From: Watersipora subatra
Taxonomy: Eukaryota
Length of the DNA: 64,000 nucleotides
Reading direction: 5' to 3'
NCBI RefSeq assembly: GCF_963576615.1
Contig: NC_088716.1
Span: 43,623,910-43,687,909 of the forward strand
Both the position numbers and the translations under genes were made by a program. Every line of letters begins with the position of its first letter. Positions within the stretch are counted from its first letter, which is position 1. Shown in pieces: positions 4,942-36,984 of the stretch. Under the pieces are notes generated by a model. That model was not told the origin of the DNA, did no database searches, and was given only the letters and a program-made list of their open reading frames with translations.

Positions 4942-5789
4942 CCAGGGGTGGATCTAGAAAAAAAAGTGTGTGGTGCAAAATTTGTGTAATATCTCTGGAG
5001 TGGGAGGGGGTGCGCGGGGCGACCCCTTTACCTGGCCCCCGCGCTAGCAGAACTTTTTGAAATTTAGGCATCTTAGAATGAAGGAGAGGTGTGTTTGAGC
5101 CCAAAAGAGTCTAATCATTTATTTGCAGCAAACAACAAGTTTAGAGGTAAAAATTGACATTAGACATGATCAATTAAATTGGTGTTTTATAATGTTCCTT
5201 AAGCTATTTATATCAAGATTACATGTAAACAGAAAGTTGACAAACATTTGTGCAGTAAAATAAAATCAAGACAAAATCAATCACAAAACCTCAACAGCCA
5301 TTTGGTTTGGCTGTGCAGAAATTAGCCATAATTTCTGTAAACTACCATAAAAAATGTTTCGTAGTATTAGCTACATAATGATGCTATTATAAAACAGATA
5401 TATTAGGGCCTACTTTTTTGATTTGTTGTTTTGTCGTCGAAAAAAATGATCCAGAGTTCGTTCTTGACCTTTCTTTTGAGACATTTTGCTTTTAAAATTG
5501 CTTGTAGTACTTCTTTCGAAAAATTGTGGCTCAATTGGGGATGTTTATTGGGACCACTCTCATTTGTTTATAAGCTAAACAAATTTAGGTCAATGTAATT
5601 GAAACTGGTTCGTTATAACGAGCTCTACTAGGCCGTTTTTGTTCCTTTCCTCCCAAAGCAAGTTCTTAGTGAAATGAATTATAATTTACTCAATTCTTGA
5701 TGGATTTTAAATTTTTTTTTTTAATTTTTGCCATATTTATAGTGGTGCATTAATTTTGCACCATATGCACCACAGTAGATCCGTCCCTG
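4942..5789. mobile_element. Non-autonomous TIR element, copy 1 (~848 bp), terminal inverted repeats CCAGGGG(T/C)GGATCTA
   Basis: The left end cccaggggtggatctag is the reverse complement of the right end ctagatccgtccctg. A second copy about 90 percent identical lies at 22395-23235. The element is AT-rich internally and has no long ORF. Confidence 0.7.
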
Positions 5790-6169
5790 TGAAATTCACT
5801 TACTATTCCAAACTGTAAATTCAAGTCTGTAGAAAGAAGAAACATCAAACTACCTGCAACATTTCACTTTTCCCAAGTACTCAGGAATGAGATGTGCAGT
5901 TTCGCACTTGAGCTAAGCCAATCAAATAGCATTCACGAAAAGGATTTCCCAGGGTTTTCCATGGCGTTACGGGGTTTTTTACTGAGTGAGATAGTGATCA
6001 GAAAACAACCAAAAACGTCATTATTTTTTAATAAATACCTATCCAGCTATTCACAATTGACTTATTTAATCATTAAATATTTAAAAAGAGCAAAATATAC
6101 TAATATAAATAGAGATCATACAAATGTCTGTTAAAAAGTCTGTTAGCCATATTTGATGCGTAAAAATAC

Positions 6170-6570
6170 CTCAATTTTTACGGTTAATTATAAGATATCA
6201 CTGTTAAAAGTGACAGCATTACAATGACGATAAAACAGACGCGTAAGAACAGACAACATCTTTAATCATGTCTATACAGGGTTTTGAGTGCGTGAAGTAT
6301 ATTTGTGAAAATATTTCGACGAATAAGGTTGCACGAAAGTGTAAACAGAAACCGTCTACCACAGCTGCGTCACAGTTGAGCCATTTTGGAAAGAGAATCC
6401 AAACTATGGTGATCTTGTGTGGCTGCGATTAACTGTTCGTTTTTGAGCTTTTAAGAGCTTGTAATCACATTTCCACATATTTTGCACTTACAAAACAACG
6501 GAGTAAGACATGGTGAATCTTTTCATATCAAATAACTGTGTTGTGAATTTTGTTGCAAGTCAATCTTTAA
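6170..6570 (+). repeat. Dispersed ~390-bp repeat, copy 1
   Basis: Near-identical to 16630-17017, with a shared string tacggt(t/a)a(a/g)ttata...gtgacagcattac...gttgcaagtcaa. Confidence 0.7.
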
Positions 6571-8150: not shown

Positions 8151-9029
8151 ATTTTATGAAGCACTTTATTTCAGAGTGACAGTTTCAAGATTACAAGATC
8201 AGAGTCTATATAGTAATAGAAGCAAATACCAGTAGATAGATTTAATGTTTATATAATGTAATATAATATAATTTTTATATGCTACGATAACAGAACACTC
8301 GCCGTGTATCAAACACATTTAGTATATACTAGAGCAGTTTTATGGTATTTGTTGTAAGTAATCAATGGAAAACCGAAAGCATCTAAGAATGTGGCATTTG
8401 AAGGATAAATCTATGTTCAAGGATAAAAGTGAAGCTATATGGAATCTATTTGGAAAAAGAATTATCAAGGTTGGTGGGTTGTATCCCGACCTTGACATAG
8501 CTTAGAGAACTCGACCATTTTCATGGAATTAGCTAAATAATAAATAGTTATTTCTAATAGTAATAAATATATAATAAATAGATATTTCTCATCATGTATC
8601 AAATATTTACATCTAGCTGTCTCCGCTAATATTTTTTGGTTTTTAACAAGTATTTGGCAGCGTTAGTAACAGAACGCTAACTGACAGCAGTCATGCATCT
8701 GACTGCTGTTATTATAGCGCATGAGATGTGCTGATATGTAGAAAGAAACCAGCTCTGAAATTGATGAAGAAGCTTGCAAAACACTTTAAATATTTTTGGC
8801 AGTAAAAAAGTTAATGAAGGAAGTTATTATACCTTTCATTTGCATTGCTCTATTTTTAGATATGAAATAAAGTATGGAAAGAGTATGCTTCTCTATTGTC
8901 AAACGACCTTATTGATAAGACAACTATAACAAAACTTAACACACGATTGGTACAATAGGTTCAATTCAACTAGTGTATATAGTTTATTTACAAACAAACA
9001 AAAATAACATATATGTACAACAATACTTT

Positions 9030-10703
9030 CTAACGAACATTCGGTTTAAAACAACCGAAGAACAATTTTTTGAGTCGACCACCATTTTGTGGTGGGAAAA
9101 CCTCAATATTGCCAATGTCCATGTCCAATGTAACATATTTGGTTTGAGGAGGATTAGCTTCCTGGCTACAGGAAGGCAAGATGCTGCTACCGTCAATAAC
9201 TGTCACGCGAGCTTCTAGGTCAAGGCTTGAGTTGTCTTGTTCTAATGTAACATATTTGGTTTGAGGGTGATCAGCTTCCTGGCTACAGGAAGGCAAGGTG
9301 TTGCTATCGTCAATAACTGTCACGCGAGCTTCGAGGTCAAGGCTTGAGTTGTCTTGTTCCAATGTAACATATTTGGTTTGAGGGTGATCAGCTTCCTGGC
9401 TACAGGAAGGCAAGATGCTGCTATCGTCAATAACTGTCACGCGAGCTTCTAGGTCAAGGCTTGAGTTGTCTTGTTCTAATGTAACATATTTGGTTTGAGG
9501 GTGATCAGCTTCCTGGCTACAGGAAGGCAAGATGCTGCTATCGTCAATAACTGTCACGCAAGCTTCGAGGTCAAGGCTTGAGTTGTCTTGTTCCAATGTA
9601 ACATATTTGGTTTGAGGGTGATCAGCTTCCTGGCTACAAGAAGGCAAGATGTTGCTATCGTCAATAACTGTCACGCTAGCTTCTAGGTCAAGGCTTGAGT
9701 TGTCTTGTTTGAATGTATCATATTTGGTTTGAGGGAGATCAGCTTCCTGGCTACAAGAAGGCAAGTTGTTGCTATCATCAATAACTGTCACGCGAGCTTC
9801 TAGGTCAAGACTTGAGTTGTCTTGTTCCAATGTAACATATTTGGTTTGAGGGTGATCAGCTTCCTGGCTACAAGAAGGCAAGATGTTGCTATCGTCAATA
9901 ACTGTCACGCGAGCTTCTAGGTCAAGGCTTGAGTTGTCTTGTTTGAATGTAACATATTTGGTTTGAGGGTGATCAGCTTCCTGGCTACAAGAAGGCAAGT
10001 TGTTGCTATCGTCAATAACTGTCACTCGAGCTTCTAGGTCAAGGCTTGAGTTGTCTTGTTCCAATGTAACATATTTGGTTTGAGGGTGATCAGCTTCCTG
10101 GCTACAAGAAGGCAAGTTGTTGCTATCGTCAATAACTGTCACTCGAGCTTCTAGGTCAAGGCTTGAGTTGTCTTGTTCCAATGTAACATATTTGGTTTGA
10201 GGGTGATCAGCTTCCTGGCTACAAGAAGACAAGATGTTGCTATCGTCAATAGCTGTCACGCGAGCTTCGAGGTCAAGGCTTGAGTTGTCTTGTTCCAATG
10301 TAACATTTTTGGTTTGAGGGTGATCAGCTTCCTGGCTACAAGAAGACAAGATGTTGCTATCGTCAATAACTGTCACGCGAGCTTCGAGGTCAAGGCTTGA
10401 GTTGTCTTGTTCTAATGTAACATTTTTGGTTTGAGGGTGATCAGCTTCCTGGCTACAAGAAGGCAAGATGTTGCTATCGTCAATAACTGTCACGCGAGCT
10501 TTGAGGTCAAGGCTTGAGTTGTCTTGTTGTGATTGTTCAATCTTTTCCAACTTCATCTGAGGCCTGAATTTTATTGCAAAGCCTTTCCATTTACCCTGAC
10601 CTTTCTTTTTGATAAGGTATTTCTTTTTTCTTTGCTGTTTGGGTTTACTTCTTGGACCTGTAGAAGCTTTAACTTTCGTACCAGGGATGTTAAAGAATCT
10701 GTA
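9030..10703 (-). CDS. Terminal coding exon of a repeat-containing protein: lysine-rich segment followed by ~13 tandem 39-aa repeats, stop at 9030
   Basis: On the minus strand the reading frame stays open from a splice-acceptor-like ttatatttacag (plus ~10704-10715) through ...NIPGTKVKASTGPRSKPKQQRKKKYLIKKKGQGKWKGFAIKFRPQ MKLEKIEQ... and the 508-aa repeat ORF. An AATAAA lies downstream of the stop on the minus strand at plus ~8975-8985. Confidence 0.55.
   Translation of the reverse strand, partial: YRFFNIPGTKVKASTGPRSKPKQQRKKKYLIKKKGQGKWKGFAIKFRPQMKLEKIEQSQQDNSSLDLKARVTVIDDSNILPSCSQEADHPQTKNVTLEQDNSSLDLEARVTVIDDSNILSSCSQEADHPQTKNVTLEQDNSSLDLEARVTAIDDSNILSSCSQEADHPQTKYVTLEQDNSSLDLEARVTVIDDSNNLPSCSQEADHPQTKYVTLEQDNSSLDLEARVTVIDDSNNLPSCSQEADHPQTKYVTFKQDNSSLDLEARVTVIDDSNILPSCSQEADHPQTKYVTLEQDNSSLDLEARVTVIDDSNNLPSCSQEADLPQTKYDTFKQDNSSLDLEASVTVIDDSNILPSCSQEADHPQTKYVTLEQDNSSLDLEACVTVIDDSSILPSCSQEADHPQTKYVTLEQDNSSLDLEARVTVIDDSSILPSCSQEADHPQTKYVTLEQDNSSLDLEARVTVIDDSNTLPSCSQEADHPQTKYVTLEQDNSSLDLEARVTVIDGSSILPSCSQEANPPQTKYVTLDMDIGNIEVFPPQNGGRLKKLFFGCFKPNVR
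9100..10535. repeat. 117-bp tandem repeat array, about 12-13 units, more than 90 percent identical
   Basis: Direct reading: the unit ...aatgtaacatatttggtttgagggtgatcagcttcctggctaca(g/a)gaaggcaag...caaggcttgagttgtcttgttc... recurs every 117 bp. 117 = 39 codons. Confidence 0.9.
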
Positions 10704-11539
10704 AATATAATGGTGGAGTAATTAATGATTGTCTGTCAATCAGCACAAACTAGTTATGGTACATTTTACTTTAGATGAGAAGAACAGACTCTATCACTAC
10801 TGCTGTCATCATTAATAGGCATAGTATTAAATGCAGCCCTGAATTATGATAGAGAAGATATGGTAAGATTACACTGCTCTGACAATGCTGGAGTTGTACT
10901 TCTCACATCACACGCATTATCATTAGTGTTATCAACCAGATGAGATAACTTTAGGTGAAGCTGTTGTGTTGTGCACAAAGAGAAACTAGCTGCTCTGAAT
11001 AAGTTTAATTATATCCGATCATACACAAGCTTGTGTTCTTACAAAAGTAAACTATTTACTATAATACAGTTAAGTGTATTCATGCGCAGGGTACAGGTAC
11101 AAATTGTAGTATTTTAATTGTTAATTGTATTTTTAATAGATATTAGCTGACTTACAGTATCTTCTCAATCAGTGGGACGATGATAATAGCTATCGTAAGA
11201 GCTACACCATTTCTCTCTATATAATCTCGAACTATCGGTATGATCACTTGAATCAGCATGTGATCACATGACATAATCACAAAGCAAACGAGAAGAGCCT
11301 GAATAAACATGTTTCCTATTACAAGTTTGTTCAGCAAGTAAAATCTGATTGTTTACGTAATGCTGCTTCAGGGTTTTTATTGTTAGGGTAACGATGGGTG
11401 ACTGCATTTGAATTGGTGGGAACGTTTCGAAGCAAATTACTGTAAATCAATTAGAAGGAATTAACTTTTGAAAGATTTTTTCAATGAGAACAAACACTTC
11501 CTTATAGGCTAGTATAAAAAACTCATAAAACATATGTAG

Positions 11540-12270
11540 ATTCATACATCATATAACATAGATACCATCATATAATATAGATACATACATCATATGAGAT
11601 AGATGCATACATCATATAACATGGATACCATCATATAACATATATATTTACATCAAATGACATAGATCATGCATCATATAACATAGATACATACATCATA
11701 TGAGATAGATGCATCCATCATATAACATCGATACCATCATATAACATAGATACATACATCATATGGCATAGATGCATACGTCATATAACATAGATATTTA
11801 CATCATACGACATAGATGCATACATCACATGACATAGATGCATACATCATATGACATAGATACCATCATATGACAGATACATACATCATATGACATAGAC
11901 GCATACTGTACATCATATAATATAGATGCCATCATATGACATAGATATTTACATCATATGACATAGATACATGCATCATATGACATAGATATATACATCA
12001 TACGATATACATGTAGATACATCATATGACATAGATGCATACATCATATGATATAGATACCATCATATGATATACAGTAGATGCATGCATCATATGACAT
12101 AGATACCATCATATGACATAGATATGTACATCATGACATAAATGCATACATCATATAACATAGATGCATGCATCACATGACGTAGATACATGCATCATAT
12201 GACATAGATACCGTCATATGATATAGATGAATACTTGGTATGACATAAATACCATCATACGACATACACA
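11540..12270. repeat. Satellite with 19-22-bp units (catcatatgacatagatacata variants)
   Basis: Direct reading of reiterated catcatat(a/g)acatagat(a/g)c units. Confidence 0.85.
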
Positions 12271-14710: not shown

Positions 14711-14908
14711 TCACAAGTCTGGCTGAGCAGATAATTCCATCTGATGATAGAGCTGTTCGTACTGACGGTTAAACCCAGAACCGTGAATAGCAAATGCATT
14801 AAACTTGTCCACCTTTGGGGGGAAATAGTCGAGAGGTATGTTTGCTTGCCCCTGCCAACTACCTGTGTCAGCACACAATGTCGTAGAATACTTGAGGGGT
14901 AGCAGAGT
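14711..14908 (-). CDS. Putative 3'-terminal coding exon (65 aa + stop): [65 protein letters not shown]
   Basis: The minus-strand frame is open from an acceptor-like ttttgtatacag (plus 14909-14919), immediately after an in-frame TGA, to a stop at plus 14711-14713. The peptide has low-repetition, protein-like composition. It differs from the frame listed in the ORF track. Product not recognised. Confidence 0.35.
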
Positions 14909-15399
14909 CTGTATACAAAATCAACGACGTTAGGTCAGCCAGTCCTAGGACGATTGAGGTAATAACCTGTTCAAAAAACGATAGAAACTTATTTTTATAG
15001 AATAAGCGAAAAATGACTTTAAATTAATTTAACTTATTGCTATTAGATTGTAGGTAAATAATTTATAGTATTTAATGTAAGTACTGGGTAAACACCGAAC
15101 TCTCTCATGACGAGCTCAACTGACTGGCTTACAATAAGCCTCGACTCTATAACGTTGTACAACCGTGAGATGTCATGCAACTACATGAACGTGCCACTAG
15201 TTATCATTTTATAAACAATTTTTAAATATGTTTACCGAGGAAGAGGTATATGCAGCTTGTAAACACTTTTTTGCATTTTATTTGTACTTGTTTCAGGATT
15301 ACCTTATTACTCTTATTATTACTCTTGTCTGTTTATTTATTGTCACTAATAGTGTTTTATCACGACTAGACACGCCCTCAATGAGAACAACTGCTAGTA

Positions 15400-15725: not shown

Positions 15726-16140
15726 CGAAGTATCTCAAAGTATTTATTCCTTATGTACTGCTATCATGTCTGAACAGATATGCATTTGTTATTTATTGCT
15801 TAGCTCTCCTACCCTACCTGACTTATTGTCACCTATTGTATTAGAATTGATTTGCATGATCTTTATGCAGTTGACATTTCAAAGGTGGGTTGTAGCAGAG
15901 TTAGAATAATAGTGCACAGAGTCCCGCGACCAATGAAGCATATATGGGAGCTCGCTAGTTTCCAAATAAACAGGCCGCGCCTACCATTTTTATATAACCT
16001 ATAATTGAGAGTCAACCACATTACCAAACAAAAATACTCCCATTTGCAGTTGCCCTAAAATTCATTGTTGTATTACATACCATATAGAAGAAGACAAAAT
16101 TTCTTACTAAATGCTATCAATAATTTTATAATTAAAGGTT

Positions 16141-16278
16141 GACTTGCAACAAAAATCACATTACAGCTATTTGGTATCAAAACATTCACCATGTCTTACT
16201 CTGTTGTGTAGTAGGTGCCAAATATGTGGAAATGTGATTACAAGCTCTTAAAAGCTCAAAAACGAAAAGCCGCCGTAG
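16141..16278 (-). repeat. Inverted partial copy of the 3' ~135 bp of the 390-bp dispersed repeat
   Basis: It matches the reverse complement of 6435-6570 (gacttgcaacaaaa(t/a)tcaca...gagcttttaagagc). Together with the direct copy at 16630-17017 it forms an inverted pair about 350 bp apart. Confidence 0.65.
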
Positions 16279-16629
16279 ATTGGAATCTTTTTATTTCGAT
16301 GACGTAGCTACGAAATTTGGTTATCGCCTTGTCACGTATGTTCTCACGTGAATTGAAAGGCCAATACAAAGCTCAATATAAAACTTATCGTAGCACTAGT
16401 TTATGACAAACACTTCGGGTTTTACCGAAGACCCAGTATCAAATATAGATGCTCGCTACTTAACAGTTTTGTTTCGGTTTGGTCTAATCGGCAAGTCGTA
16501 ATCTGATCATGTGACCCAATACTTCGCAAATAATTTCTGCAGCACTTTTCGATTATCACTGGTGACCAACAGGCTCGTCGTGATTATCAGACAATGATAT
16601 GTACTCTTTCAAGCTAAGGCTAAAAAATT

Positions 16630-17017
16630 AAACGAATTTTTACGGTAAGTTATAGGATATCAGTGCTAAAAGTGACAGCATTACGATGATGATAAAACAG
16701 ACGAGTAAGAACAATAGACATGGTTTTATTGAATGCGTGAAGTATATTTATGAAAATATTTCGACGAATAAGGTTGCATGAAAGTGTAAACAGAAACCAT
16801 CTCTCACAACTACATCACATTTGAGCCGTTTTGGAAAGAGAATCCAAACTACGGCGGTCTCGTGTGGCTGCGATTAACTGTTCGTTTTTTGAGCATTTAA
16901 GAGCTTGTAATCACCTTTCCACATATTTTGCATCTACAACACAACAGAGTAAGACATGGTGAATCTTTTCATATCAAATAACTGTAATGTGAATTTTGTT
17001 GCAAGTCAACCTTTAAA
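16630..17017 (+). repeat. Dispersed ~390-bp repeat, copy 2
   Basis: About 88 percent identity to 6170-6570. Confidence 0.7.
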
Positions 17018-17230
17018 GAGGGTTAATTTATTTTAAATTATAGAATTAATGACATCATCTTGTAGGGAAATTCTTTTAAATGGTATATAATACAACAAAC
17101 AATTTTAGAGTGACTGCAAATGGGAGTTATTTTTATTAGCTGCTATTGCTGTCTCTCCATTACAGCTTATGTAAAATGGTCTGTTTGTTTGAAAACTAGC
17201 CTTTTCGTTTCCGGTTCTGGTCACGGGACT

Positions 17231-20200
17231 CTATGCGCTATACTCTATGCGCTATACTCTATGCGCTATACTCTATGCTGTATACTCTATGCGCTATACT
17301 CTATGCGCTATACTCTATGCGCTATACTCTATGCGCTATACTCTATGCGCTATACTCTATGCGCTATACTCTATGCGCTATACTCTATGCGCTATACTCT
17401 ATGCGCTATACTCTATGCGCTATGCTCTATGCGCTATACTCTATGCTGTATACTCTATGCGTTATACTCTATGCGCTATACTCTATGCGCTACACTCTAT
17501 GCGCTATACTCTATGCGCTATACTCTATGCGCTATACTTTATGCGTGTATACTCTATGCGCTATACTCTATGCGCTATACTCTATGCGCTATACTCTATG
17601 CGCTATACTCTATGCGCTATACTCTATGCGCTATACTCTATGCATTATACTCTATGCGTGTATACTCTATGCGCTATACTCTATGCGCTATACTTTATGC
17701 GCTATACTCTATGCGCTATACTCTATGCGCTATACTCTATGCGCTATACTCTATGCGCTATACTCTACGCGCTATACTCTACGCGCTATACTCTATGGGC
17801 TATACTCTATGCGCTATACTCTATGCGCTATACTCTATGCGCTATACTCTATGCGCTATACTCTATGCGCTATACTCTATGCGCTATACTCTATGCACTA
17901 TGCTCTATGCGCTATACTCTATGCTGTATACTCTATGCGTTATACTCTATGCGCTATACTCTATGCGCTACACTCTATGCGCTATACTCTATGCGCTATA
18001 CTCTATGCGCTATACTTTATGCGTGTATACTCTATGCGCTATACTCTATGCGCTATACTCTATGCGCTATACTCTATGCGCTATACTCTATGCGCTATAC
18101 TCTATGCATTATACTCTATGCGTGTATACTCTATGCGCTATACTCTATGCGCTATACTCTATGCGCTATACTTTATGCGTGTATACTCTATGCGCTACAC
18201 TCTATGCGCTATACTCTATGCGCTATACTTTATGCGTGTATACTCTATGCGCTATACTCTATGCGCTATACTCTATGCGCTATACTCTATGCGCTATACT
18301 CTATGCACTATACTCTATGCTCTATACTCTATGCGCTATACTCTATGTGCTATACTCTATGCGCTATACTTTATGCGTGTATACTTTATGCGCTATACTC
18401 TATGCGCTATACTCTATGCGCTATACTTTATGCGTGTATACTCTATGCGCTACACTCTATGCGCTATACTCTATGGACTATATTCTATGCGCTATACTCT
18501 ATGCGCTATACTCTATGCGCTATACTCTATGCACTATACTCTATGCTCTATACGCTATACTCTATGCGCTATACTCTATGCGCTATACTCCATGCGTGTA
18601 TACTTTATGCGCTATACTCTATGCGCTATATTTTATGCGCTATACTCTATGCGCTATACTCTATGCGCTATACTCTATGCGCTATACTCTATGCGCTATA
18701 CTCTATGCGCTATACTCTATGCGTTATACTCTATGCGTGTATACTCTATGGGCTATACTCTATGCGCTATACTCTATGCGCTATACTCTATGCGCTATAC
18801 TCTATGCGCTATACTCTATGCGCTATACTCTGTGCGCTATACTCTATGCGCTATACTCTATGCGCTATACTCCATGCATTATACTCTATGCGTGTATACT
18901 CTATGGGCTATACTCTATGCGCTATACTCTATGCGCTATACTCTATGCGCTATACTCTATGCGCTATACTCTATGCGCTATACTCTATGCGCTATACTCT
19001 ATGCGCTATACTCTATGCATTATACTCTATGCGTGTATACTCTATGCGCTATACTCTATGCGCTATACTTTATGCGCTATACTCTATGCGCTATACTCTA
19101 TGCGCTATACTCTATGCGCTATACTCTATGCGCTATACTCTACGCGCTATACTCTACGCGCTATACTCTATGGGCTATACTCTATGCGCTATACTCTATG
19201 CGCTATACTCTATGCGCTATACTCTATGCGCTATACTCTATGCGCTATACTCTATGCGCTATACTCTATGCACTATGCTCTATGCGCTATACTCTATGCT
19301 GTATACTCTATGCGTTATACTCTATGCGCTATACTCTATGCGCTACACTCTATGCGCTATACTCTATGCGCTATACTCTATGCGCTATACTTTATGCGTG
19401 TATACTCTATGCGCTATACTCTATGCGCTATACTCTATGCGCTATACTCTATGCGCTATACTCTATGCGCTATACTCTATGCATTATACTCTATGCGTGT
19501 ATACTCTATGCGCTATACTCTATGCGCTATACTCTATGCGCTATACTTTATGCGTGTATACTCTATGCGCTACACTCTATGCGCTATACTCTATGCGCTA
19601 TACTTTATGCGTGTATACTCTATGCGCTATACTCTATGCGCTATACTCTATGCGCTATACTCTATGCGCTATACTCTATGCACTATACTCTATGCTCTAT
19701 ACTCTATGCGCTATACTCTATGTGCTATACTCTATGCGCTATACTTTATGCGTGTATACTTTATGCGCTATACTCTATGCGCTATACTCTATGCGCTATA
19801 CTTTATGCGTGTATACTCTATGCGCTACACTCTATGCGCTATACTCTATGGACTATATTCTATGCGCTATACTCTATGCGCTATACTCTATGCGCTATAC
19901 TCTATGCACTATACTCTATGCTCTATACGCTATACTCTATGCGCTATACTCTATGCGCTATACTCCATGCGTGTATACTTTATGCGCTATACTCTATGCG
20001 CTATATTTTATGCGCTATACTCTATGCGCTATACTCTATGCGCTATACTCTATGCGCTATACTCTATGCGCTATACTCTATGCGCTATACTCTATGCGTT
20101 ATACTCTATGCGTGTATACTCTATGGGCTATACTCTATGCGCTATACTCTATGCGCTATACTCTATGCGCTATACTCTATGCGCTATACTCTATGCGCTA

Positions 20201-20415
20201 TACTCTGTGCGCTATACTCTATGCGCTATACTCTATGCGCTATACTCCATGCATTATACTCTATGCGTGTATACTCTATGGGCTATACTCTATGCGCTAT
20301 ACTCTATGCGCTATACTCTATGCGCTATACTCTATGCGCTATACTCTATGCGCTATACTCTATGCGCTATACTCTATGCGCTATACTCTATGCGCTATAC
20401 TCTATGCACTATACA
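17231..20415. repeat. 14-bp satellite (CTATGCGCTATACT)n, about 225 units, with ~1375-bp higher-order periodicity
   Basis: Direct reading. Variant-unit landmarks (ctatgctgtatact at 17921 and 19296; ctacgcgctatactctacgcgc at 17765 and 19140) recur at an offset of 1375 bp. Confidence 0.9.
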
Positions 20416-22394: not shown

Positions 22395-23235
22395 CCAGGT
22401 TTGGATCTAGGAAAAAAAGTGTGTGGTGCAAAATTTGTGTAATAGGTATATCTAGAGTGGGAGGGGTGCGCGGGGCGACCCCCTTACCTGGCCCCGCGCT
22501 AGCGGAACTTTTTGAAATTTAGGCATGTTAAAATGAAGGAGAGGTGTGTTTGAGCCGTGTAATCATTTGTTTGCAGCAAACAACAAGTTTAGAGGTAAAA
22601 ATTGACATTAGATATGATTAATTAAATTGATGTTTTATAATGTTCCTTATACTATGTATATCAAGATTACATGTAAACAGAAAGTTAACAAACATTTGTG
22701 CAATAAAATAAAATCAAAACAAAATCAATCACAAAACTTCAACAGCCATTTGGTTTGGCTGTGCAGAAATTAGCCATCATTTCCGCAAACTACCATTAAA
22801 AATGTTTCGTAGTATTAGCTACATAACGATGCTATTATAAAACAGATATATTAGGGCGTACTTTTTTGAATTGTTGTTTTGTTGTCGAAAGAAATGATCC
22901 AAAGTTCGTTCTTGACCTTTCTTTTGAGACATTTTGCTTTTAAAGTTGTTTGTAGTACTTCTTTCAAAAAGGTTGTGGCTCAATTGGGGATGTTTATTGG
23001 GACCACTCTCATTTGTTTATAAGCTAAACAAATTCAGGTCAATGTTATTAAAACTGGTTCGTTATAACGAGCTCTGCTAGGCCGTTTTTGTTCATTTCCT
23101 TCCAAAGCAAGTTCTCAGTGAAATGAATTGTAATTTACTCAATTCTTGATGGATTTTAAATCTTGTTTTGAAATTTTTTGCCATATTTATGGTGGTGCAT
23201 TTGCACCATATACACCACAGTAGATCCGCCCCTGG
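22395..23235. mobile_element. Non-autonomous TIR element, copy 2 (~841 bp)
   Basis: About 90 percent identical to 4942-5789. The termini are ccaggtttggatctag ... ctagatccgcccctgg. It is flanked by tac on both sides, a possible 3-bp target-site duplication. Confidence 0.7.
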
Positions 23236-26699: not shown

Positions 26700-29600
26700 A
26701 AGGGTAGCAATATCAGAAGAATAATAGGTAAAGACAAATAAATCACCATTGATAGAATATCTCATAGCACTAATGGCAATGTTCTAGTTCAACTTAGCAA
26801 AGAATTAATGGTTGACAAAGTTATCTGGCAATGGGAACCAAAAACTTTGGAAACTCCAAAGTAAGAAAGATTATTTCAGCAACTCTAAAATCAGGCGTAT
26901 TAAAGGGAGTTCCAACAGACAAATGATGAACAGATACAGGACGACCTACAACAAGAAGACTATAATGTCACAAAAGTTAAGCGGTATCGAGTGGACAGCT
27001 CATACACTACAGCAATAAAAATCAGAGGAAGTAGAACCAGTAGGAGGACGGATTTCAGTGACACAATGCTATAACTGCATGAAATCTGTTCACATAGCTA
27101 TGACCATTTTTTCCGTATGAGTCAAAAGAAATGTCGCCACTATTCTGACCCCTATGAAGAGATGCATGATGAATGTCCAAAGGAAAAGAAATGTATTAAC
27201 TTTGAAAAGAAGCACAAACCCCTGGATAAAAACTACTCATAATACAGAAAGCTCTTTCATCGACAAGAACTGAGATGAGAACAAATGTTATGCTCCATCA
27301 ACTACTATGGCTAATAAGTCTGACAACAAGCGAAAGATGATACAGATTAGCATAAATGGTTTTTGTCACCTCTCACTATTAACTCTCGACAAATACATCA
27401 ATCAAAACAAAGCAGATCTAGTATTCATTTTAGAAATTAAAACAATGCAGATTTCAAATGATTACTTCCAAAACTACAGTGTTCTCTTAAAACCAATCAA
27501 CAACAACCTCTCTAAGCAAGGCACCGTTGTTATATTACTACACAACACTATAAGCTCTGACAGACTACACAGTATAGAACAACGAGATTCAGAAATACTT
27601 TTCATTGCCATCAACATAAATGGTAAATATTCATACTCGGATCAACATATATTCAACCTGAAAATACTATTAAACTAGAAACTGTTCTCAAACAAATTAG
27701 TAGAGCTAGAGTCGAGACGCCTAATCTCAAGTGCACAGAACTAGCTATACATGGTGATTTCCATGCAAGGAGCCCTGCTTGGAATGACTGCAAAACCAAT
27801 TCACTTGGCCAACAGCTTTTTAACTACTGCAACAACCAAAACTTTTAAGGGGTAGACAAACACAATGATTTCACTTTTCTCTGCAATTATGGTGGAAGTG
27901 TTGTAGACCTAATGATAACAACCCAAAATACAGCTATCATAATAAGCAACCAGTACACATATGACTTCACAGAACTTTGCTCAGGAGCACCAACAAGAGG
28001 CCACATTCTGGTGTGGACTTTGTTTACAACACAGAAGATGCAAACAGAACCAAAAAATTCATACTCATATAACAGATGTGAGTGGATTAAGTAAACTACA
28101 CAATTAGATATACTTTGAGCAGAAACATTCTCGGGATTGCAGCAGAAACCGATCTTACAATTATCCAGAACAAAATTTTTACCAATCTTACTCGTTTTAA
28201 AGAATCAAATATCCCAAAAATTAAGCTATCATGAGACTGCAAAACGTATTGGCCGTATTGGACTGAAGAACTATCAACCCTGTCGAAAGAACTAAGACAA
28301 GCAAAGGCAAAATTAAAATAGACTAAGAGTAGTTCTTTTGAGAATGGTGATACACTTGAATTGTCAAAACAAAAATTCAGAAAAGCATCAGAATATGCAA
28401 AAACAAAATTTCCTTGAAGCAAAAGCAGACAAGAGGACCGCTTGAAACAAGCGGTCCTCTTGACCACAGTAATAGTCCAGAGTTTTGGAACAAATTCAAG
28501 TAGACCTTTTATCACAATACTAATGCTCGGTGGTACTTAGATTGGTGATCTAAGTACCACCGATCTAAGATTGGTGGTCTAAGTACCATCAGCAAGATTC
28601 TAACCACCGATTCAAGTAAAGCAGAACTTTTTTATGACAACATCTTCCAAGGCAAACACTTCACATCAACTCTACACCACACTTAGTTATCAGGGATTCG
28701 TTAGGGATGCATGTTAACAATTTAGTCATCAGGGAATTAGGAATTAGTTAGCATTTAAACAACAGAGTTGCAGAAGAATTGAAAAATGCACCTAGATTTT
28801 CACGCTTGACCAGTCACAATAGAAGAAATAATCGAGTCTACAAAACAAATTAAAACCAGAGGAAAAGGACCCGACTACGACAGAGTACACCTTTCAATGA
28901 TAAAAAATGGAAGTTTCCAGTTTCAAATTACACTCAAAATTCTGTTTCACAGTATCCTTACCTCAACCAGGAACCATTTTTCAACAATGTAGTTAATTTC
29001 TTGAGAAAGCATGGGAAGAAAGATTACACCACAACAAACAACTATCGTATCGCCCAATCACAAAAATCTCTCAATGTGGAAAAATTCTAGAAAGAATAAT
29101 TTAGCACGAACTTAAAACTCTAACAGGCTGGATACCAGAATACCGTCAGAATTTTGTAAAAACAGATTTACCTCTACTTACCTATGGCCAATGATGATAG
29201 AATTTCAATACAATCAATCATCTAAACAAAAATTCGCGGGTCTCTTTATTGATTTGCAAAAAACGTTTGACACTGTATGGCACCACGGAATGTTGTTCAG
29301 ACTCGCTGAATTAAGAATAAATGGACCCTTTTTTCAATTAATATCTGATATTCTCATACGACGAGCGATCAGAATTAAAGTTAACAACCATCTATCACAG
29401 CCAAAACAATGCGAAATAGGACTCCCACAAGGAAACATCTTATCCTCTGTACCTTTTATATTTTACACAAGAGACATGCTGAGCTTATGGAATGGAACTC
29501 CGCTACAATATGCAGATGTCTGTTTAGTTATCTGCTGAAAACCAAATAAAGAGCTACTATATGAAATAATGAAAAGCAACTGCATCAAGCTCACACACTG

Positions 29601-30540
29601 ACTAGAACAATGGCGCATGAAGGCGCACTGTTTTAAGACAGATACTATTTGGTTCAACTGTAACTCAAAACAACTCCAAGTCAGCGGAGAAAACATAAAA
29701 ATTACTAATTTTTCTAAAGTTTTAGGTTTAACCCTAGACTCTAAGTTAGCATTCAACAGACAAAAAGAAGTATCAAAAGCAATATTGGCCAAAAAATGGA
29801 GACTACTTTTCTAGTTCATCAATGCAGGGTTAAAGCCATACTATTCTAAAAAGATATTAGAATCAACCATAATACCGAAAGTGTTTTACAATAGTTTTAT
29901 AGGGAATCAAAAAGCTGACATCTCTCTCCATAGTTGTTTGAAAGACATATACTAGGAGCAAAGACTAATCCTTCAATAGAAGCACTCCAGCATATCACAA
30001 ACATACCTACAGCTGAGTCTTTAAGCTCCAGAGACATATACACATACTGTTGAGTGGCAATAGGACAAATTTATTTCGCAAAAACTTTGTTATCTACGAA
30101 AAGTAAACTTCAAAATAAAATACATTCTCACATTGTAAGCCTAAATGGTAGAAACACAACTATAGCAGACATGTCAAGTCATTTTAGAGGATCCACTATT
30201 CGAAAGCAACTAATTAATGATTGGCAACGCCAATGGATAACTCGTCTGATAACGGGACACTGTTATCTTCTTCAGACCTGAACCCTTGTATATAGTATCA
30301 ATCAGTTTATTTTTGTACAAGTTATCCTGCATTACTTATTTGAAGTCATCCTCTCATGTAAATTTTATTTTAGGTTTCACACAAATAATCTCAAACTGAA
30401 CATGAATTGTTCACTACTATCTTGTATTCAGAATACTTTTACAGTTTCCATTTTATTTGATAATATTCCTGAAAATAGAGGCTTTTTATTATTTTGTTAT
30501 CAACAAAATAAAAGATTACTAATTAACTTCAAACCTGGAA
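26700..30540 (+). mobile_element. Non-LTR retrotransposon (Jockey/CR1-like LINE), copy A, degraded
   Basis: Around 27000 there is an ORF1-like CX2CX4H knuckle remnant (CYNCMKSVH). The AP-endonuclease start is at 27307 (MIQISINGFCHL...DLVFILEIK). The RT lies at 29190-29800 (FIDLQKTFDTVWHHGMLFRL...NNHLSQPKQCEIGLPQGNILSS...YAD). There are multiple stops and frameshifts, and an internal deletion of the zinc-finger region relative to copy B. The 3' tail ends ...aacttcaaacctggaa. The 5' boundary is uncertain. Confidence 0.8.
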
Positions 30541-33500
30541 CAACAAGATTCAGAGATACTTTTCATTGCCATCAACATAAATTGTAAACGATTCATACTC
30601 GGATCAACGTATATTCAACCTGAAAATACAACAAAACTAGATACTGTTCTCAAACAAATTGGTAGAGCCAGAGCCGAAATGCCTAACCTGAAGTGCACAG
30701 AACTAGCTATACTTGGTGATCTCAATGCAAGGCACCCGGCTTAGAATGACTGCAAAACCAATACACTTGGCCGACAACTTTTTAACCACTGCAATAACCA
30801 AAACTTTGAAGTGATAGACCAACACAAAGATTTCACTTTTCTCTGCATTAATGGAGGAAGTGTTATAGACCTTATCATAACAACCTAAAATACAGCTACT
30901 ATAATGAGCAACCAGTACGCAGATGACTCGAAAGAACTTTTTTCAGGAGCATCAACAAGAGGCCACGTTCCGGTGTAGACATTGTTTACAACACATAAGA
31001 TAAAAACAGAACTGAAAATCTCATACTCTTGGAACAGATGTGAGTGGATTAAATATACTACACAATTAGAGATACTTTCAGCAGAAACAATCCCAGGGAT
31101 TGTAGCAGAAACAGATCCTGCAATTATATGGAACAAAGTTCTTACCAATCTTACTCATTCCAAAGAATCAAACGTCCCAAAAATTAAGCTATCAGGGCAC
31201 TGCAAACCTTACTAGAATGAAGAACTGTTAACTTTGTCGAAAGAACTAAGACAAGCAAAAGAAAAATTCAAATACAGAAGTTCTTTTGAGTATGGTGATA
31301 CGCTTGAATTATCAAAGCAAAGATTCAGAACAGCACTGGAAGATGCAAAAACAAAATTTCTGGAAACAAAAGCAGACGCCCTCAACTGCAGTAATGGTCC
31401 AGAGTTTTGGAAGAATTTCAAGCAGACTTTTTATAACAATACTAATGCTAAGATCGGCGATTTAAGTACCACCAGCAAAATTCTAACCACCGATTCAAGT
31501 AAAGCAGAACTCTTCTATGACAACATCTTCAAAGGCAAACACCTTACCATCAACTCTACATCAGACTCAGTCATCAGGGACTCGTTAGGGGCGCATGTGA
31601 ACAAAAGAGTTGCAGAACAATTGCAAAACGAACCTAGATTTCCACACTTGACCACACCAGTCACAATCGAAGAAATAATCAAGTCTACACAACAAATTAA
31701 AACCAGAGGAAAAGGACCCGACTACGACGGAGTGCACCCTTCATGATAAAAAATGGAAGTTTCCAGTTTCAAATTACGCTCAAAATCCTGTTTGACACTA
31801 TCCTTACCTCAAGCAAATGGCCATTTTCCAACAATGTAGTAGTTTTCTTGAGAAAGCTTGGGAAAAAATGATTACACCACAACAAACAACTATCGCCCAA
31901 TCACAATAACCTCTAAATGTGGAAAAATTCTAGAAAGAATAATTGAGCACAGACTAAGTATTCTAACAGAGTCAGAAGGCTGGATACCAGAATACCAACA
32001 ACGATTTTGTAAAAACAGATCTACCTCTACTTACCTATGTCCAATGATGTTAGAAATTCAACACAATCAATCATCTAAAAAAAGCTGCAGGCATTTTTAT
32101 CGACCTACAAAAAGCTTTTGACAGTGTATGGCACCAAGGAATGCTGTTCCGACTTGTTGAATTAGGAATAAATGGATCCTTCCTTCAATTAATATCTAAT
32201 TTCCTCACACGACAAACAATCAGAATTAAAGTTAACAACCATCTATCACAGCCAAAACAATGCGAAATAGGACTGCCACAAGGAAGTATCTTATCCCCTA
32301 TACTTTTTATACTTTACACAAGAGACATGCTGAACTCATGGAATGGAACTCCGCTTCAATATGCAGATGATTGTTCAGTTATCTGCTTAAGACCAAATGA
32401 AAAACTACTATATGAAACGATGGAAAGCTACTGCATCAAGCTCACACACTGGCTAGAACAATGGCGCATGAAAGCAAACTGTTCCAAGACAGATACTGTT
32501 TGGTTCAACTGTAACCCAAAACAATTTCAAGTCAGCGGAAAAAACGTAAAAATTACCAATACTATTCTAGTTTTAGATTTAACCCTAGACTTTAAGCTAG
32601 CATTCAACACACAAAGAGAAGAGTCAAAAGCGATATTGGCCAAAAAATGGAGACTACTTCTCCCGTTCATCAATGCAGGGTTAAAGCCATACTATTCTAA
32701 AAAGATACTAGATTCAACCATAATGCCGAAAGTGTTTCACAATAGTTTTATATGGGATCAAAAAGCTGACACCTCTTTCCATAGTTGTTTGAAAGACATA
32801 TGTAGTACTAGGAGCAAAGACTAATCCTTCAATAGAAGCACTCCAGCATATCACAAACATACCTACAGCTGAGTCTTTAAGCTCCAGAAACATATACACA
32901 TACTGTCGAATGGCAATAGGACAGAGTTATTTTGCAAAAACTTTGTTATCTACAAAAAGTAGATAGATTAAGTCATTTTAGATGATCCACTATTCGAAAG
33001 CAACTAATTAATGATCGACAACGCGGATGGAAAACTCATCTCATAACAGGACACTGCTCCACTGGTTTATTAAAGGACCTAGAAACAGATCATCTGGAGG
33101 AAAACCTTATTCCACTTATATTACCAAGGAGACAAATATCAATTTTAACTGGGCGTTTCACAGGCCACACAACCTTACAATATCACTTATACAAACTCAA
33201 TTTAACATTTACACCAACATGCACATGCCTGGATGAGGACCAAACAGTAGACCATTATCTATACAGATGCCGCAATTACACCAATCTAAGAAAGAAAATA
33301 TTTCCAAACCCTCACAACTATCAACGCCTGCTAGAACTTGTACATGAAAGCGGCCGATTCAATTGAAAACATAATTAACCCACTGTAGATAAACCATAGA
33401 AGTAAACATCAACGATACTTACACACACAGATGATACCGACCATATTATAGTCATCCTATTATTAATAACAATCAATCTTGCCACAATCAATACTCATAG

Positions 33501-33873: not shown

Positions 33874-33921
33874 ATGGCATACAAACCTCAGAAGGTGCAG
33901 AAGGTTATGGTACAACCCATT
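33874..33921 (+). CDS. SNRPE: snRNP Sm-E (SNRPE) exon 1: MAYKPQKVQKVMVQPI, donor gtatcc
   Basis: The peptide matches the conserved Sm-E N-terminus (MAYRGQGQKVQKVMVQPI in human). A GT donor follows immediately. Confidence 0.8.
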
Positions 33922-35950
33922 GTATCCTTTCAAGTCTTTTTATCCAACGCTCAGGCTTGCCAACCCAAGAGTGGGGCAATGCTTGAGATTTGGTTTGGGG
34001 CAACTGATGTATCAATGATAGTATATATAAAATTGTTGAAATTGGGTCCAAAATCTCACGCATTTTCATTTTAACTTTGGGTTGGTTGTGTGAGAGTTGG
34101 CAGGTATGCTAACGCTAATTACTTTCCGTGAAAATGGCGCTGATCATTATTTTCATGATGATGAACTTTTTATTATTAAAATATGATATACAACAATGAA
34201 GCAAAAACCTCTTTTTGCAGGCTAACATGAAATGAAATTGTATGGTCCGATTATAGTACATATTGACCTTAATAGATCGTAATATATTATATAGCTAAAA
34301 ATGTATTATGTACAATTAAAATGGACGTGTTTATTTTGATTGTTCATGTTTGGCAATGTTGACTGGCAAAATTTTCTATTTAAACAAGATTGTATTAAGT
34401 GTTTGGCATGATAGTCTTACGCGTTTGGCAAAAATTGTCTTGAATGCTTGGGTCGACAGTATCTGCAAACATCTGCAGAGCTGGTCTCCTGACGTCAGAC
34501 GGCCCTAGACGCCGTCAAGTGTTAGTGTTGGTCGAGTTAACGCCTGGCCAAGGCTATAATATTATCATCTGGTGTCATGTGAACATGAGACGACGGGTGA
34601 CTTGCAGGAAGTCTATTAGGGAATCCCAACTATTTTCTGTTGGCTGTATGTGTGATCTAGCATCTTTGGAATCCGCACATATATGGAGGTAATGGTGATC
34701 ATCTTCTTTTAAACAAGTGCAAGTTGGACTGTAACTGAATCCTGATCTGAATTGGAATAATTGGAGTCTGCTTTGGCCCGCTTTGTTTTACATTGAAGGC
34801 ATATGCTCAAAATGTTATTGTCATGAGCTTTCATCAAAACATTGACGCCTTAAATAATGTTATGGTGTGACTTCTGAATTACCTCGGATGAAGTAGAACG
34901 ATTTTTGTCACCATTAGCATAGTGAGTGTGCCCCATGTTTAATGTAGTGCTATTATATATATGGCCGGGGTTCAACGATACTGCTGATCATGTTTAGCTG
35001 TCAGCGGGCCTTATATTGTGTAGGCGCTGTAAATGTTTGCGATAGTTATGTAGTATTTTGTCTACCCAAATTCAGCAATTTTTTAAAATCAGCGTATAGG
35101 TTTCTATTTATATATTATTTTTTTAGATTTGCATGAGAATGCAAAGTTCTGTTGACCTCACCAGCAAAGAAAAAATTAAATATAACTTAAGTGAGTATAT
35201 AATACGAGTAGTGGATAGAGTATTTTATGAATGCAAAAAACTTGGCCCTAGTATGAGATGGAGTAAAATAGATTAAACATTGTATATAGGCCTACATGAG
35301 GTATAAAAAAACGAAAGATTTAATTTGGTAATTGGGCTAGACTTAATTCACTGTACTAATGGATGTACATGGAAAAAATAAATATGTCTATTTATGGAGG
35401 CTCCCTACTCTACTGTTCAAGAGCCATTTATGGCCCTAAAATGTAGACAGCCCATTGTTTATGATAAAGAAAAAAAAAAGATAGGGTTTATAACTTTCTA
35501 CACACAAACACACCTATATGTACGTTATGTTATGTATGTACGTATGTATATATAAGAGGTCTCGAGGCACTGAAGCATTCACGTCAAAATGAGTTATTAT
35601 CTGGTAGCTAAAATATCGGTCAAGTTTTGTTTAAAGCAATTTCATATGAATTTGCCTACGCTATCATGAGTGGGCGAATATGTAACAAGCTAGTGATCAC
35701 TGATCATGCTTGTAAAAGCTGTTTCCATATGTCATCAGCCAATTGGTTTCATTGTTTGTGCGATCTGGTCATCATATTTAACGCCACTGTTGAATTAAAA
35801 ACGACATTTTTAAGAAAATTTTGGCGTCATATTCTATTTTTTAAGATTTATTAGTTTGTTATCATGCCTAAAATGTTGTACAAGTCAAAAGTTGTAGTAA
35901 TAGGTTTGGTTTACAAAATTCTTTCATTGCTTTTCTTAACTGCGTTGCAG

Positions 35951-36919: not shown

Positions 36920-36984
36920 GTCGAATTCTACTGAAAGGAGACAATATAACACTACTGCAGGCCGTAGATGGTGTGGGAGGATAA
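36920..36984 (+). CDS. SNRPE: SNRPE exon 3: (G)RILLKGDNITLLQAVDGVGG*
   Basis: The acceptor is ctattgcag. The phase-1 junction gives ...TIG|RILLKGDNITLLQ, which matches the conserved RIMLKGDNITLLQ. A stop TAA is at 36982-36984. Confidence 0.8.

What the first reader, a model, noticed from the sequence alone, without database searches (positions are those of the whole stretch)
9030..10703. Minus-strand terminal exon encoding a basic segment plus about 13 near-identical 39-aa tandem repeats
The 117-bp array is not just an open frame by chance. The frame continues upstream through a non-repetitive lysine and arginine-rich segment (PGTKVKASTGPRSKPKQQRKKKYLIKKKGQGKWKGFAIKF) to a good splice acceptor. 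It ends in a unique C-terminal tail with a polyadenylation hexamer just beyond the stop. Repeat units differ at only a few positions, which suggests recent expansion or concerted evolution. The repeat (VTLEQDNSSLDLEARVTVIDDSNILPSCSQEADHPQTKY) is acidic and Ser-rich, and I do not recognise the family.
Basis: partly seen in the sequence, partly recalled or inferred. Interest (0 to 1): 0.6.

Follow-up and report, generated by a model that had tools for sequence, protein, structure and literature searches.

The report
Orphan repeat-protein gene candidate, bryozoan
A 117-base unit repeated 12 times sits inside a long open reading frame that may be the last exon of a small, species-restricted gene in a bryozoan genome, but nothing shows it is expressed, so it is an ordinary unproven candidate.

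Summary
A 117-bp tandem array lies at 9124-10528 with 96% identity and no indels. There are 12 units, not about 13. All lie in one open minus-strand frame, 10721-9033, with stop TAG at 9032-9030 and AATAAA at 8988-8983.

The open frame inside the array proves little. About half of shuffled units stay open in some frame, and two other arrays in the window also give long ORFs.

The evidence for a gene is in the flanks. The frame stays open 64 codons upstream and 34 downstream of the array (P about 0.01 and 0.09). I also found a compatible first exon at 11310-11156. It has an ATG, two hydrophobic segments and a perfect GTAAGT donor in the phase that the acceptor at 10699 needs. The two exons give a 607-aa model: hydrophobic head, a segment with 16 Lys/Arg, 12 acidic 39-aa repeats (10 carrying TKY[V/D]T[L/F]) and a short tail.

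Against a working gene:
- Variation between units looks near-neutral (7 synonymous, 16 non-synonymous).
- No homologue or domain was found.
- The AlphaFold beta model is an artefact; a control ORF scored higher.

An SmE gene in the window is closest to Bugula neritina, so this is a bryozoan whose own proteins are not in the databases. Verdict: a plausible lineage-specific repeat-protein gene, unproven, of low to moderate interest.

The parts
9124..10528 (-). 117-bp tandem array, 12 units (in protein register 10538-9135), each encoding 39 aa with consensus VTLEQDNSSLDLEARVTVIDDSNILPSCSQEADHPQTKY
   Evidence: TRF: period 117, 12.0 copies, 96% matches, 0 indels. The units were listed and translated. 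All 12 matches are on the minus strand, against 0 expected by chance.
9030..10698 (-). Candidate terminal coding exon, including the TAG stop at 9032-9030. It encodes a basic segment, 12 repeats and a unique 34-aa tail.
   Evidence: Open frame 10721-9033 while the other five frames are closed. Shuffle and empirical tests were run on the flanks.
10699..11155 (-). Candidate intron of 457 nt, phase 2. Donor GTAAGT at 11155-11150. Acceptor ...ccaccattatatttacag at 10701-10699.
   Evidence: Sequence read directly. Phase check and spliced translation without a stop. GC is 0.33, against 0.44 in the array.
11156..11310 (-). Candidate first coding exon: MFIQALLVCFVIMSCDHMLIQVIIPIVRDYIERNGVALTIAIIIVPLIEKI(L). 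It has two hydrophobic segments, and the ATG has A at -3.
   Evidence: 65 open codons run into a perfect GTAAGT donor in the required phase. Only 2 of 17 GTRAG[TA] sites in the 11 kb upstream have 50 or more open codons. P(open) is 0.005 by shuffling and 0.022 empirically. Kyte-Doolittle 19-residue maxima are 2.2 and 2.4.
10560..10691 (-). Basic segment, model residues 55-98: 16 K/R, no D/E, pI 11.8. It directly follows the second hydrophobic segment.
   Evidence: Composition computed. Sequence.
9033..9134 (-). Unique C-terminal tail VTLDMDIGNIEVFPPQNGGRLKKLFFGCFKPNVR. Its first 4 residues are the start of a 13th unit.
8983..8988 (-). AATAAA hexamer 42-47 nt after the stop codon; a possible polyadenylation signal
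   Evidence: Support is weak because this hexamer is common in a genome with 36% GC.
10774..10843 (-). 70-nt exon-like segment inside the candidate intron, with acceptor ...ataattcag and donor AAG|gtaaaatg. It was considered and rejected, because including it gives a premature stop in either usable frame.
   Evidence: Read. The frames were worked out by hand from that sequence.

Best explanation
The array is a coding minisatellite inside the last exon of a small two-exon gene restricted to one bryozoan lineage.

Gene model:
- Exon 1 (11310-11156) encodes a hydrophobic N-terminus. This is read either as a signal peptide plus a membrane span, or as a two-span hairpin.
- Exon 2 (10698-9030) continues the second hydrophobic segment. 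It then encodes a strongly basic juxtamembrane stretch, 12 tandem 39-aa acidic repeats (pI about 4) and a short tail.

By the positive-inside rule the basic stretch, and therefore the repeats, face the cytoplasm.

Each repeat carries Ser/Thr in acidic context. In 10 of 12 units it also carries a TKY[V/D]T[L/F] motif. That motif fits both the YxxPhi sorting consensus and the [S/T/I/V/L]xYxx[L/V/I] (ITIM/ITSM-like) consensus. The inferred mechanism is a membrane-anchored, multivalent docking or sorting tail. Its valency was set by unequal crossing-over of the 117-bp unit.

Shown here: the array, the open frame, the phase-compatible exon pair and the motifs. Inferred: transcription, splicing, topology, phosphorylation and any function.
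For: - Array and frame are confirmed.
- The frame extends beyond the array by 64 and 34 codons, with P = 0.01 and 0.09. ORFs through two other arrays in the same window stop within about 36 codons of the array edge.
- The frame is open for 47 codons upstream of the first ATG, P = 0.036.
- The upstream exon has an ATG, 65 open codons and a perfect GTAAGT donor in exactly the phase the acceptor needs.
- The hydrophobic segment runs on across the junction (PLIEKIL|FFNI). It is followed by 16 K/R and no acidic residue.
- GC is higher in the array (0.44) than in the candidate intron (0.33).
- AATAAA lies 42 nt after the stop.
- The GT-AG sites resemble those of the real SmE gene in the same window.
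- There are ten TKY[VD]T[LF] motifs, and the L-to-F changes keep a hydrophobic residue at Y+3.
- No terminal inverted repeats or second copy suggest a mobile element.
Against: - There is no transcript or protein evidence.
- No true homologue turned up in 5.8 billion clustered proteins, including the Bugula neritina proteome. Nor in an exhaustive phmmer run over 1.84 billion representatives, Pfam, PDB sequences or JGI metagenomes.
- Variation among units is close to neutral: 7 synonymous and 16 non-synonymous variants, dN/dS about 0.61, codon positions 7/8/8.
- The exon 1 model was found after the fact among several candidate donors.
- Hydrophobic ORFs are common in this AT-rich DNA.
- The second hydrophobic segment contains Pro, Glu and Lys, so it is only a marginal membrane span.
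- There is no juxtamembrane Cys.
- The first two units have Asn in place of Tyr.
Confidence: 0.4

Rival explanations
1. This is a non-coding minisatellite whose unit happens to lack stops in one frame. On this reading the flanking open frame and the upstream 'exon' are coincidence. Alternatively the locus is a young proto-gene or decaying pseudogene under no protein-level selection.
For: - 49% of shuffled units have an open frame.
- Other arrays in this window give ORFs of 124 aa and of more than 1000 aa.
- Unit variants are spread evenly over codon positions, with dN/dS about 0.6, not significantly below 1.
- No homologue or domain was found.
- The neighbourhood is rich in transposon remnants and minisatellites.
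Against: - The joint probability of the two flanking extensions is about 0.001-0.003.
- A phase-matched upstream ORF has an ATG, a consensus donor and a hydrophobic-then-basic layout.
- The period is a multiple of 3, with no indel in 1.4 kb.
- GC is raised relative to the flanks.
Confidence: 0.33
2. This is a real gene, but its product is secreted or exposed on the cell surface. On this reading the N-terminal hydrophobic stretch is a cleaved signal peptide. The acidic repeats then act as an extracellular matrix, mucus or skeletal-matrix component. They would be N-glycosylated and hold one cysteine per unit. This would resemble the lineage-specific acidic repeat proteins of calcifying invertebrates.
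For: - The N-terminus MFIQALLVCFVIMSC looks like a signal peptide.
- The repeats have pI 4.05 with 92 D/E.
- Every unit has an NSS sequon and one Cys, and there are two further NVT sequons.
- The host is a bryozoan, a calcifying phylum. That acidic repeat proteins are typical of skeletal matrices is my own background knowledge, not tested here.
Against: - A second hydrophobic segment followed by 16 K/R argues that the tail is cytoplasmic.
- Acidity of about 20% D/E is modest for matrix proteins.
- There is no homology to any known matrix protein.
Confidence: 0.15
3. The exon belongs to a larger gene whose true upstream exons lie further away. One candidate is the 68-codon open segment that ends at the GTGAGT donor at 14714, which is also in the required phase. 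On this reading the 11310-11156 exon is not used.
For: One search lists this second phase-compatible donor, with 68 open codons (ORF 14920-14714).
Against: - That ORF has no Pfam domain.
- It abuts a 22-bp minisatellite.
- Two frames are open over the same stretch, which suggests a composition effect.
- No known domain is encoded anywhere in 10.7-17 kb among the ORFs tested.
Confidence: 0.07
4. The repeats fold into a beta-solenoid or beta-helix domain, and the protein acts as a structural or adhesive fibre.
For: AlphaFold2 on the single sequence predicts two long strands per unit, with pTM 0.61. The nearest PDB folds are beta-helices such as autotransporters and tailspikes.
Against: - Mean pLDDT is only 57.9.
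- No fold match is significant: the best E is 0.66 and TM-scores are below 0.2.
- A control ORF through the 54-bp minisatellite at 58183-58554 gives a more confident all-beta model, with pLDDT 79.7 and pTM 0.70.
- AlphaFold2 is documented to produce unrealistic beta-solenoids for near-perfect repeats (PMC11795689).
Confidence: 0.03

Closest known systems
Coding minisatellites in lineage-specific (orphan) tandem-repeat protein genes of eukaryotes
   Same: - The unit length is a multiple of 3 (117 bp = 39 aa).
- The units are nearly identical with no indels.
- Neighbouring units share variants, as expected from unequal crossing-over.
- Constraint within the array appears relaxed.
- There is no detectable homologue outside the lineage.
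   Different: Expression and copy-number variation are unknown here. The evidence for coding rests only on the flanks and on a two-exon model.
Transmembrane adaptor proteins of vertebrate immune cells (LAT, PAG, NTAL, SIT) and ITIM/ITSM-bearing receptor tails
   Same: - Layout: very short extracellular part, one hydrophobic span, a basic juxtamembrane stretch, and a long tail without domains.
- The tail carries many tyrosine motifs. Ten copies of TKY[V/D]T[L/F] fit [S/T/I/V/L]xYxx[L/V/I] and YxxPhi.
   Different: - There is no sequence homology.
- There is no juxtamembrane CxxC palmitoylation motif.
- The motifs arise from one recently amplified unit rather than from diverged sites.
- The membrane span is marginal.
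- The organism is a bryozoan, in which such adaptors have not been described to my knowledge.

The resemblance is in layout only.
Acidic repetitive skeletal-matrix or mucin-like proteins of calcifying invertebrates
   Same: A signal-peptide-like start, tandem repeats, low pI, an N-glycosylation sequon and a Cys in every unit, and restriction to one lineage.
   Different: A second hydrophobic segment plus a strongly basic stretch precede the repeats. Acidity is moderate. There are no poly-Asp or poly-Ser runs, and no expression data.
Non-coding minisatellites of the same window (14-bp x227 at 17228-20414; 54-bp x7 at 58158-58536)
   Same: These are also tandem arrays that yield long open frames.
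   Different: Their ORFs end within about 36 codons of the array edges. They have no plausible start, splice or poly(A) context. Here the frame continues 64 and 34 codons into unique sequence.

Membership tests
Protein-coding exon (generic) | Open frame longer than chance would give, extending beyond the repeat | tested here: met
   The 5' extension of 64 codons has P = 0.01. The 3' extension of 34 codons has P = 0.09. Empirical values from this window are 0.023 and 0.11. The open frame within the array itself is uninformative, with P = 0.49.
Protein-coding exon (generic) | Purifying selection: an excess of synonymous or third-position changes | tested here: not met
   Among the units there are 7 synonymous and 16 non-synonymous variants. 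dN/dS is about 0.61, and codon positions carry 7/8/8 variants. Only paralogous units could be compared, because no orthologue was available.
Protein-coding exon (generic) | Transcription, splicing and polyadenylation | not testable with these tools
   No transcript data are available for this species. Its own proteins are absent from the collections: the best SmE hit is 89%, from Bugula neritina. An exact look-up of the 508-aa ORF found nothing.
Protein-coding exon (generic) | Compatible upstream exon with a start codon and consensus splice sites | tested here: met
   ATG at 11310, donor ACT|GTAAGT at 11155 and acceptor cag|A at 10699. Both sites are phase 2, and the spliced CDS of 1824 nt has no internal stop.
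Transmembrane adaptor / ITIM-ITSM type signalling tail | Single membrane span followed by a cytoplasmic tail | tested here: inconclusive
   The Kyte-Doolittle maximum is 2.44 for VALTIAIIIVPLIEKILFF, but that segment contains P, E and K. It is followed by 16 K/R. No dedicated topology predictor was available.
Transmembrane adaptor / ITIM-ITSM type signalling tail | Multiple tyrosine motifs of the form [S/T/I/V/L]xYxx[L/V/I] | tested here: met
   There are ten TKY[VD]T[LF] motifs at a 39-residue spacing. F at Y+3 in two of the units lies outside the strict consensus.
Transmembrane adaptor / ITIM-ITSM type signalling tail | Juxtamembrane CxxC palmitoylation motif (raft-associated adaptors) | tested here: not met
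   There is no Cys between the hydrophobic segment and the repeats.
Transmembrane adaptor / ITIM-ITSM type signalling tail | Tyrosine phosphorylation and SH2-domain recruitment | not testable with these tools
   This needs experiments.
Acidic skeletal-matrix / mucin-like secreted repeat protein | Cleavable signal peptide with no membrane anchor | tested here: inconclusive
   The N-terminus is hydrophobic, but a second hydrophobic segment followed by a basic stretch comes after it.
Acidic skeletal-matrix / mucin-like secreted repeat protein | Acidic, repetitive, glycosylatable sequence | tested here: met
   The repeats have pI 4.05. There are 12 NSS and 2 NVT sequons.
Dispersed satellite or transposon-borne repeat | Copies at several loci or in both orientations, or flanking terminal repeats | tested here: not met
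   Within the 64-kb window the unit is found only in this array and on one strand. No terminal inverted or direct repeats frame it. A genome-wide count could not be made.
Pfam DUF6026 (the only hit above the curated threshold) | A match that survives when a single unit is scored | tested here: not met
   The whole ORF scores 59 bits. One unit plus the tail scores 12 bits with E = 0.19, and a unit alone gives nothing. The hit is an 11-residue match summed over the repeats.
Beta-solenoid repeat fold | A confident model with a significant structural match | tested here: not met
   pLDDT is 57.9 and the best Foldseek E is 0.66. The control minisatellite ORF scores higher.

The most novel reading that the evidence does not exclude
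This is a bryozoan-specific membrane-anchored adaptor. Its cytoplasmic tail is a recently amplified minisatellite that supplies ten identical ITIM/ITSM-like or YxxPhi tyrosine motifs. Signalling or sorting valency would then be set directly by the copy number of the 117-bp unit and could vary between individuals or colonies.
Probability: 0.1. Interest if true: 0.55.

Novelty: new member of a known kind. Interest (0 to 1): 0.25.

Why it matters
If real, this would be one more lineage-restricted gene built largely by minisatellite expansion. It comes from a phylum with very little functional genomics. It could serve as a small test case for how repeat copy number tunes the number of short linear motifs in a membrane-protein tail. 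If not real, it is a useful caution. Tandem arrays give long ORFs by chance, here in about half of shuffled units. They can also give inflated Pfam scores and confident-looking AlphaFold beta models. In neither case does it bear on a long-standing open question.

Tried and rejected
- **Pfam on the whole ORF.** DUF6026 (59 bits), YxiG, GH36N and others turned out to be summed weak matches. They vanish for a single unit.
- **Word-indexed homology search with the exon.** No hits.
- **Exhaustive phmmer over 1.84 billion representatives.** It gave 16 hits, and the top four were read: two giant proteins with short VDASLNLK-type repeats, a fish-like Ig-repeat receptor and a kinase with helical repeats. 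I judged these repeat-on-repeat artefacts at 22-44% identity. The other 12 were not inspected.
- **JGI metagenome scan.** Pattern matches only, with no relative.
- **Exact look-up of the 508-aa ATG ORF.** Not on record.
- **PDB sequence search.** Nothing.
- **Rfam on the window.** Nothing.
- **AlphaFold2 plus Foldseek.** The beta-solenoid-like model was rejected after the control run and the literature check.
- **70-nt exon-like segment at 10843-10774.** It has a membrane-span-like reading, but it ends in TAA in the phase-compatible frame. The other open frame leads to an immediate stop in the next exon.
- **Single-exon gene starting at ATG 10556.** Less likely, because the frame is open 47 codons further upstream.
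- **Synteny with Bugula neritina around SmE.** The neighbours there, a PARP4-like gene and a copper amine oxidase, are not in this window.
- **Using the LINE reverse transcriptase to name the taxon.** Only two weak hits.
- **Pfam on ten upstream minus-strand ORFs.** Nothing credible.
- **Literature searches for comparable adaptors or bryozoan repeat proteins.** Nothing specific.
Full report
**1. The observation**

Tandem Repeats Finder reports one array at 9124-10528: period 117, 12.0 copies, 96% matches, no indels.
- There are 12 full 39-aa units at an exact 39-residue spacing, followed by the first four residues of a 13th. 'About 13' should therefore read 12.
- The stop-to-stop open frame runs 10721-9033 (563 codons). 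The other five frames have 23-70 stops.
- The first in-frame ATG is at 10556.
- The acceptor-like ...ccaccattatatttacag|A lies at 10701-10699. The TAG stop is at 9032-9030 and AATAAA at 8988-8983.
- Within the window the unit occurs nowhere else and only on the minus strand.

**2. How much is chance**

The open frame inside the array is not evidence for coding. A dinucleotide-shuffled 117-nt unit has at least one open frame of six in 49% of trials. The same window also holds a 14-bp x227 array that gives three ORFs of more than 1000 aa, and a 54-bp x7 array that gives a 124-aa ORF.

The informative part is the unique flanking sequence.
- The frame stays open 64 codons 5' of the first unit. P is 0.01 by shuffling, and 0.023 empirically from all frames of this window.
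- It stays open 34 codons 3' of the last unit, with P = 0.09 and 0.11.
- The 47 codons between the acceptor and the first ATG are open with P = 0.036. This favours a spliced-in exon over a single-exon ORF.
- GC is 0.44 in the array, against 0.33 in the sequence just upstream.

**3. Variation among the units**

I found 23 distinct variants: 7 synonymous and 16 non-synonymous, over 24.7 synonymous and 92.3 non-synonymous sites. This gives dN/dS of about 0.61. The variants fall 7/8/8 on codon positions 1/2/3. None creates a stop, but only about one stop would be expected. There is therefore no clear sign of purifying selection inside the array.

Neighbouring units share variants: units 1-3, units 4-5 (identical to each other) and units 9-12. 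This is the pattern expected from recent local duplication.

**4. Gene model**

Reading upstream on the minus strand, I found an ORF that starts at ATG 11310, with A at -3. It ends at ACT|GTAAGT, with the donor G at 11155. The donor leaves two bases (CT) of a split codon. The acceptor at 10699 supplies the third base (A). The spliced CDS is 1824 nt with no internal stop and encodes 607 aa.

Of 17 GTRAG[TA] sites in the 11 kb upstream, only this one and one at 14714 have 50 or more open codons in the required phase. The probability that these 65 codons are open is 0.005 by shuffling and 0.022 empirically.

The product begins MFIQALLVCFVIMSC, which looks like a signal peptide. After a short polar loop (RDYIERNG) comes GVALTIAIIIVPLIEKIL|FFNI, which spans the splice junction. 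A 44-residue stretch with 16 K/R and no D/E follows (pI 11.8). Then come 468 residues of repeats (pI 4.05) and a 34-residue tail.

The real SmE gene in the window uses ordinary GT-AG introns with similar acceptors. A 70-nt exon-like piece at 10843-10774 cannot be included without creating a stop. The model was built after the fact, and hydrophobic ORFs are common in this AT-rich DNA. I regard it as plausible, not shown.

**5. Searches for relatives**

- Pfam hits to the whole ORF are repeat-summed artefacts. DUF6026 falls from 59 to 12 bits for one unit plus the tail, and a unit alone gives nothing.
- The word-indexed search of 5.8 billion clusters found nothing.
- The exhaustive phmmer search gave 16 hits. 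The top four were read and are unrelated repeat proteins; the rest were not inspected.
- JGI metagenomes, PDB sequences and Rfam gave nothing.
- ORFs upstream on the same strand have no domains.

**6. What organism**

A three-exon SmE (SNRPE) gene lies on the plus strand at about 33.9-37.0 kb. Its best protein match is Bugula neritina at 89%, and everything else is at 80% or below. The window therefore comes from a bryozoan that is not itself in the protein collections.

This limits what the negative searches mean. They show that no detectable relative is annotated in B. neritina or beyond. They say nothing about expression in the source species. The neighbours of SmE in B. neritina are not in this window.

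**7. Structure prediction**

AlphaFold2 on the single sequence gives two long strands per unit, with pLDDT 57.9 and pTM 0.61. Foldseek finds only non-significant beta-helix matches, with best E 0.66.

As a control I folded the ORF through the 54-bp minisatellite. It gave a more confident all-beta model, with pLDDT 79.7 and pTM 0.70. This agrees with the published finding that AlphaFold2 invents beta-solenoids for near-perfect repeats (PMC11795689). The model is therefore discarded.

**8. Most likely explanation**

I put about 0.4 on a real, lineage-restricted two-exon gene with a coding minisatellite.

If the second hydrophobic segment is a membrane span, the basic stretch places the repeats in the cytoplasm (positive-inside rule, established knowledge). 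The repeats then form a domain-free acidic tail with ten TKY[V/D]T[L/F] motifs. These fit the YxxPhi and ITIM/ITSM-type consensus patterns. The layout resembles vertebrate transmembrane adaptors, but there is no homology and no juxtamembrane Cys motif. This functional reading is inference only.

Rivals:
- A chance ORF, proto-gene or pseudogene (about 0.33).
- A secreted acidic glycoprotein (about 0.15). Every unit has an NSS sequon and a Cys, and the host belongs to a calcifying phylum.
- A larger gene with different upstream exons (about 0.07).
- A folded beta-solenoid (about 0.03).

**9. Verdict**

The terminal-exon reading is partly supported and is extended here by a candidate first exon. 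There is no evidence of expression, conservation or constraint.

This is a new member of a known kind: an orphan tandem-repeat ORF or coding minisatellite. Interest is low to moderate.

Noticed in passing
window 33874-36972 (+), with extra copies at 38234-38344, 40595-40777 and 41917-42096: A three-exon SmE (SNRPE) gene, 86-89% identical to Bugula neritina SmE, identifies the source as a bryozoan. Three degenerate extra copies of its exon 2 lie downstream, two of them with in-frame stops. This suggests local segmental duplication.
   Followed up: partly
window 50613-56700: An element of about 6.1 kb has roughly 700-nt terminal inverted repeats (50613-51319 against 56013-56700, 87-98% complementary). 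The repeats begin with 25-bp tandem arrays. One of the ORFs listed for the last part of the window reads like a retroelement reverse transcriptase (…PVVLVQKKDKRFLLCVDYHQLNRVT…). Its position inside this element was not checked. The element may be DIRS-like or foldback-like.
   Followed up: partly
window 17228-20414: A 14-bp minisatellite (ACTCTATGCGCTAT, about 227 copies) yields three overlapping ORFs of more than 1000 aa on the plus strand. It serves as an internal control showing that arrays here give long spurious ORFs.
   Followed up: yes
window 58158-58536: A 54-bp x7 array gives a 124-aa ORF. AlphaFold2 folds it 'confidently' into beta strands (pLDDT 79.7), which illustrates the repeat artefact.
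   Followed up: yes
window 27307-32824 (+): Two fragments of non-LTR retrotransposon reverse transcriptase lie at 29191-29538 and 32141-32824 (Pfam RVT_1). They are probably two decayed LINE copies.
   Followed up: partly
window 5037-5729 / 22492-23178, 6162-6570 / 16624-17016, and 16132-16269 with 16886-17016: Interspersed repeat copies at 86-95% identity flank the locus at a distance. One pair forms a MITE-like inverted structure around 16.1-17.0 kb. None of them frames the 117-bp array.
   Followed up: partly
window 11537-12266: A degenerate 22-bp minisatellite of about 34 copies lies immediately upstream of the candidate first exon, where a promoter would be expected.
   Followed up: no
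window 14714-14934 (-): Two overlapping open frames of 69 and 83 codons lie on the minus strand. One ends at a GTGAGT donor in the phase the terminal exon needs. Neither has a Pfam domain. This could be an alternative upstream exon or a composition effect.
   Followed up: partly
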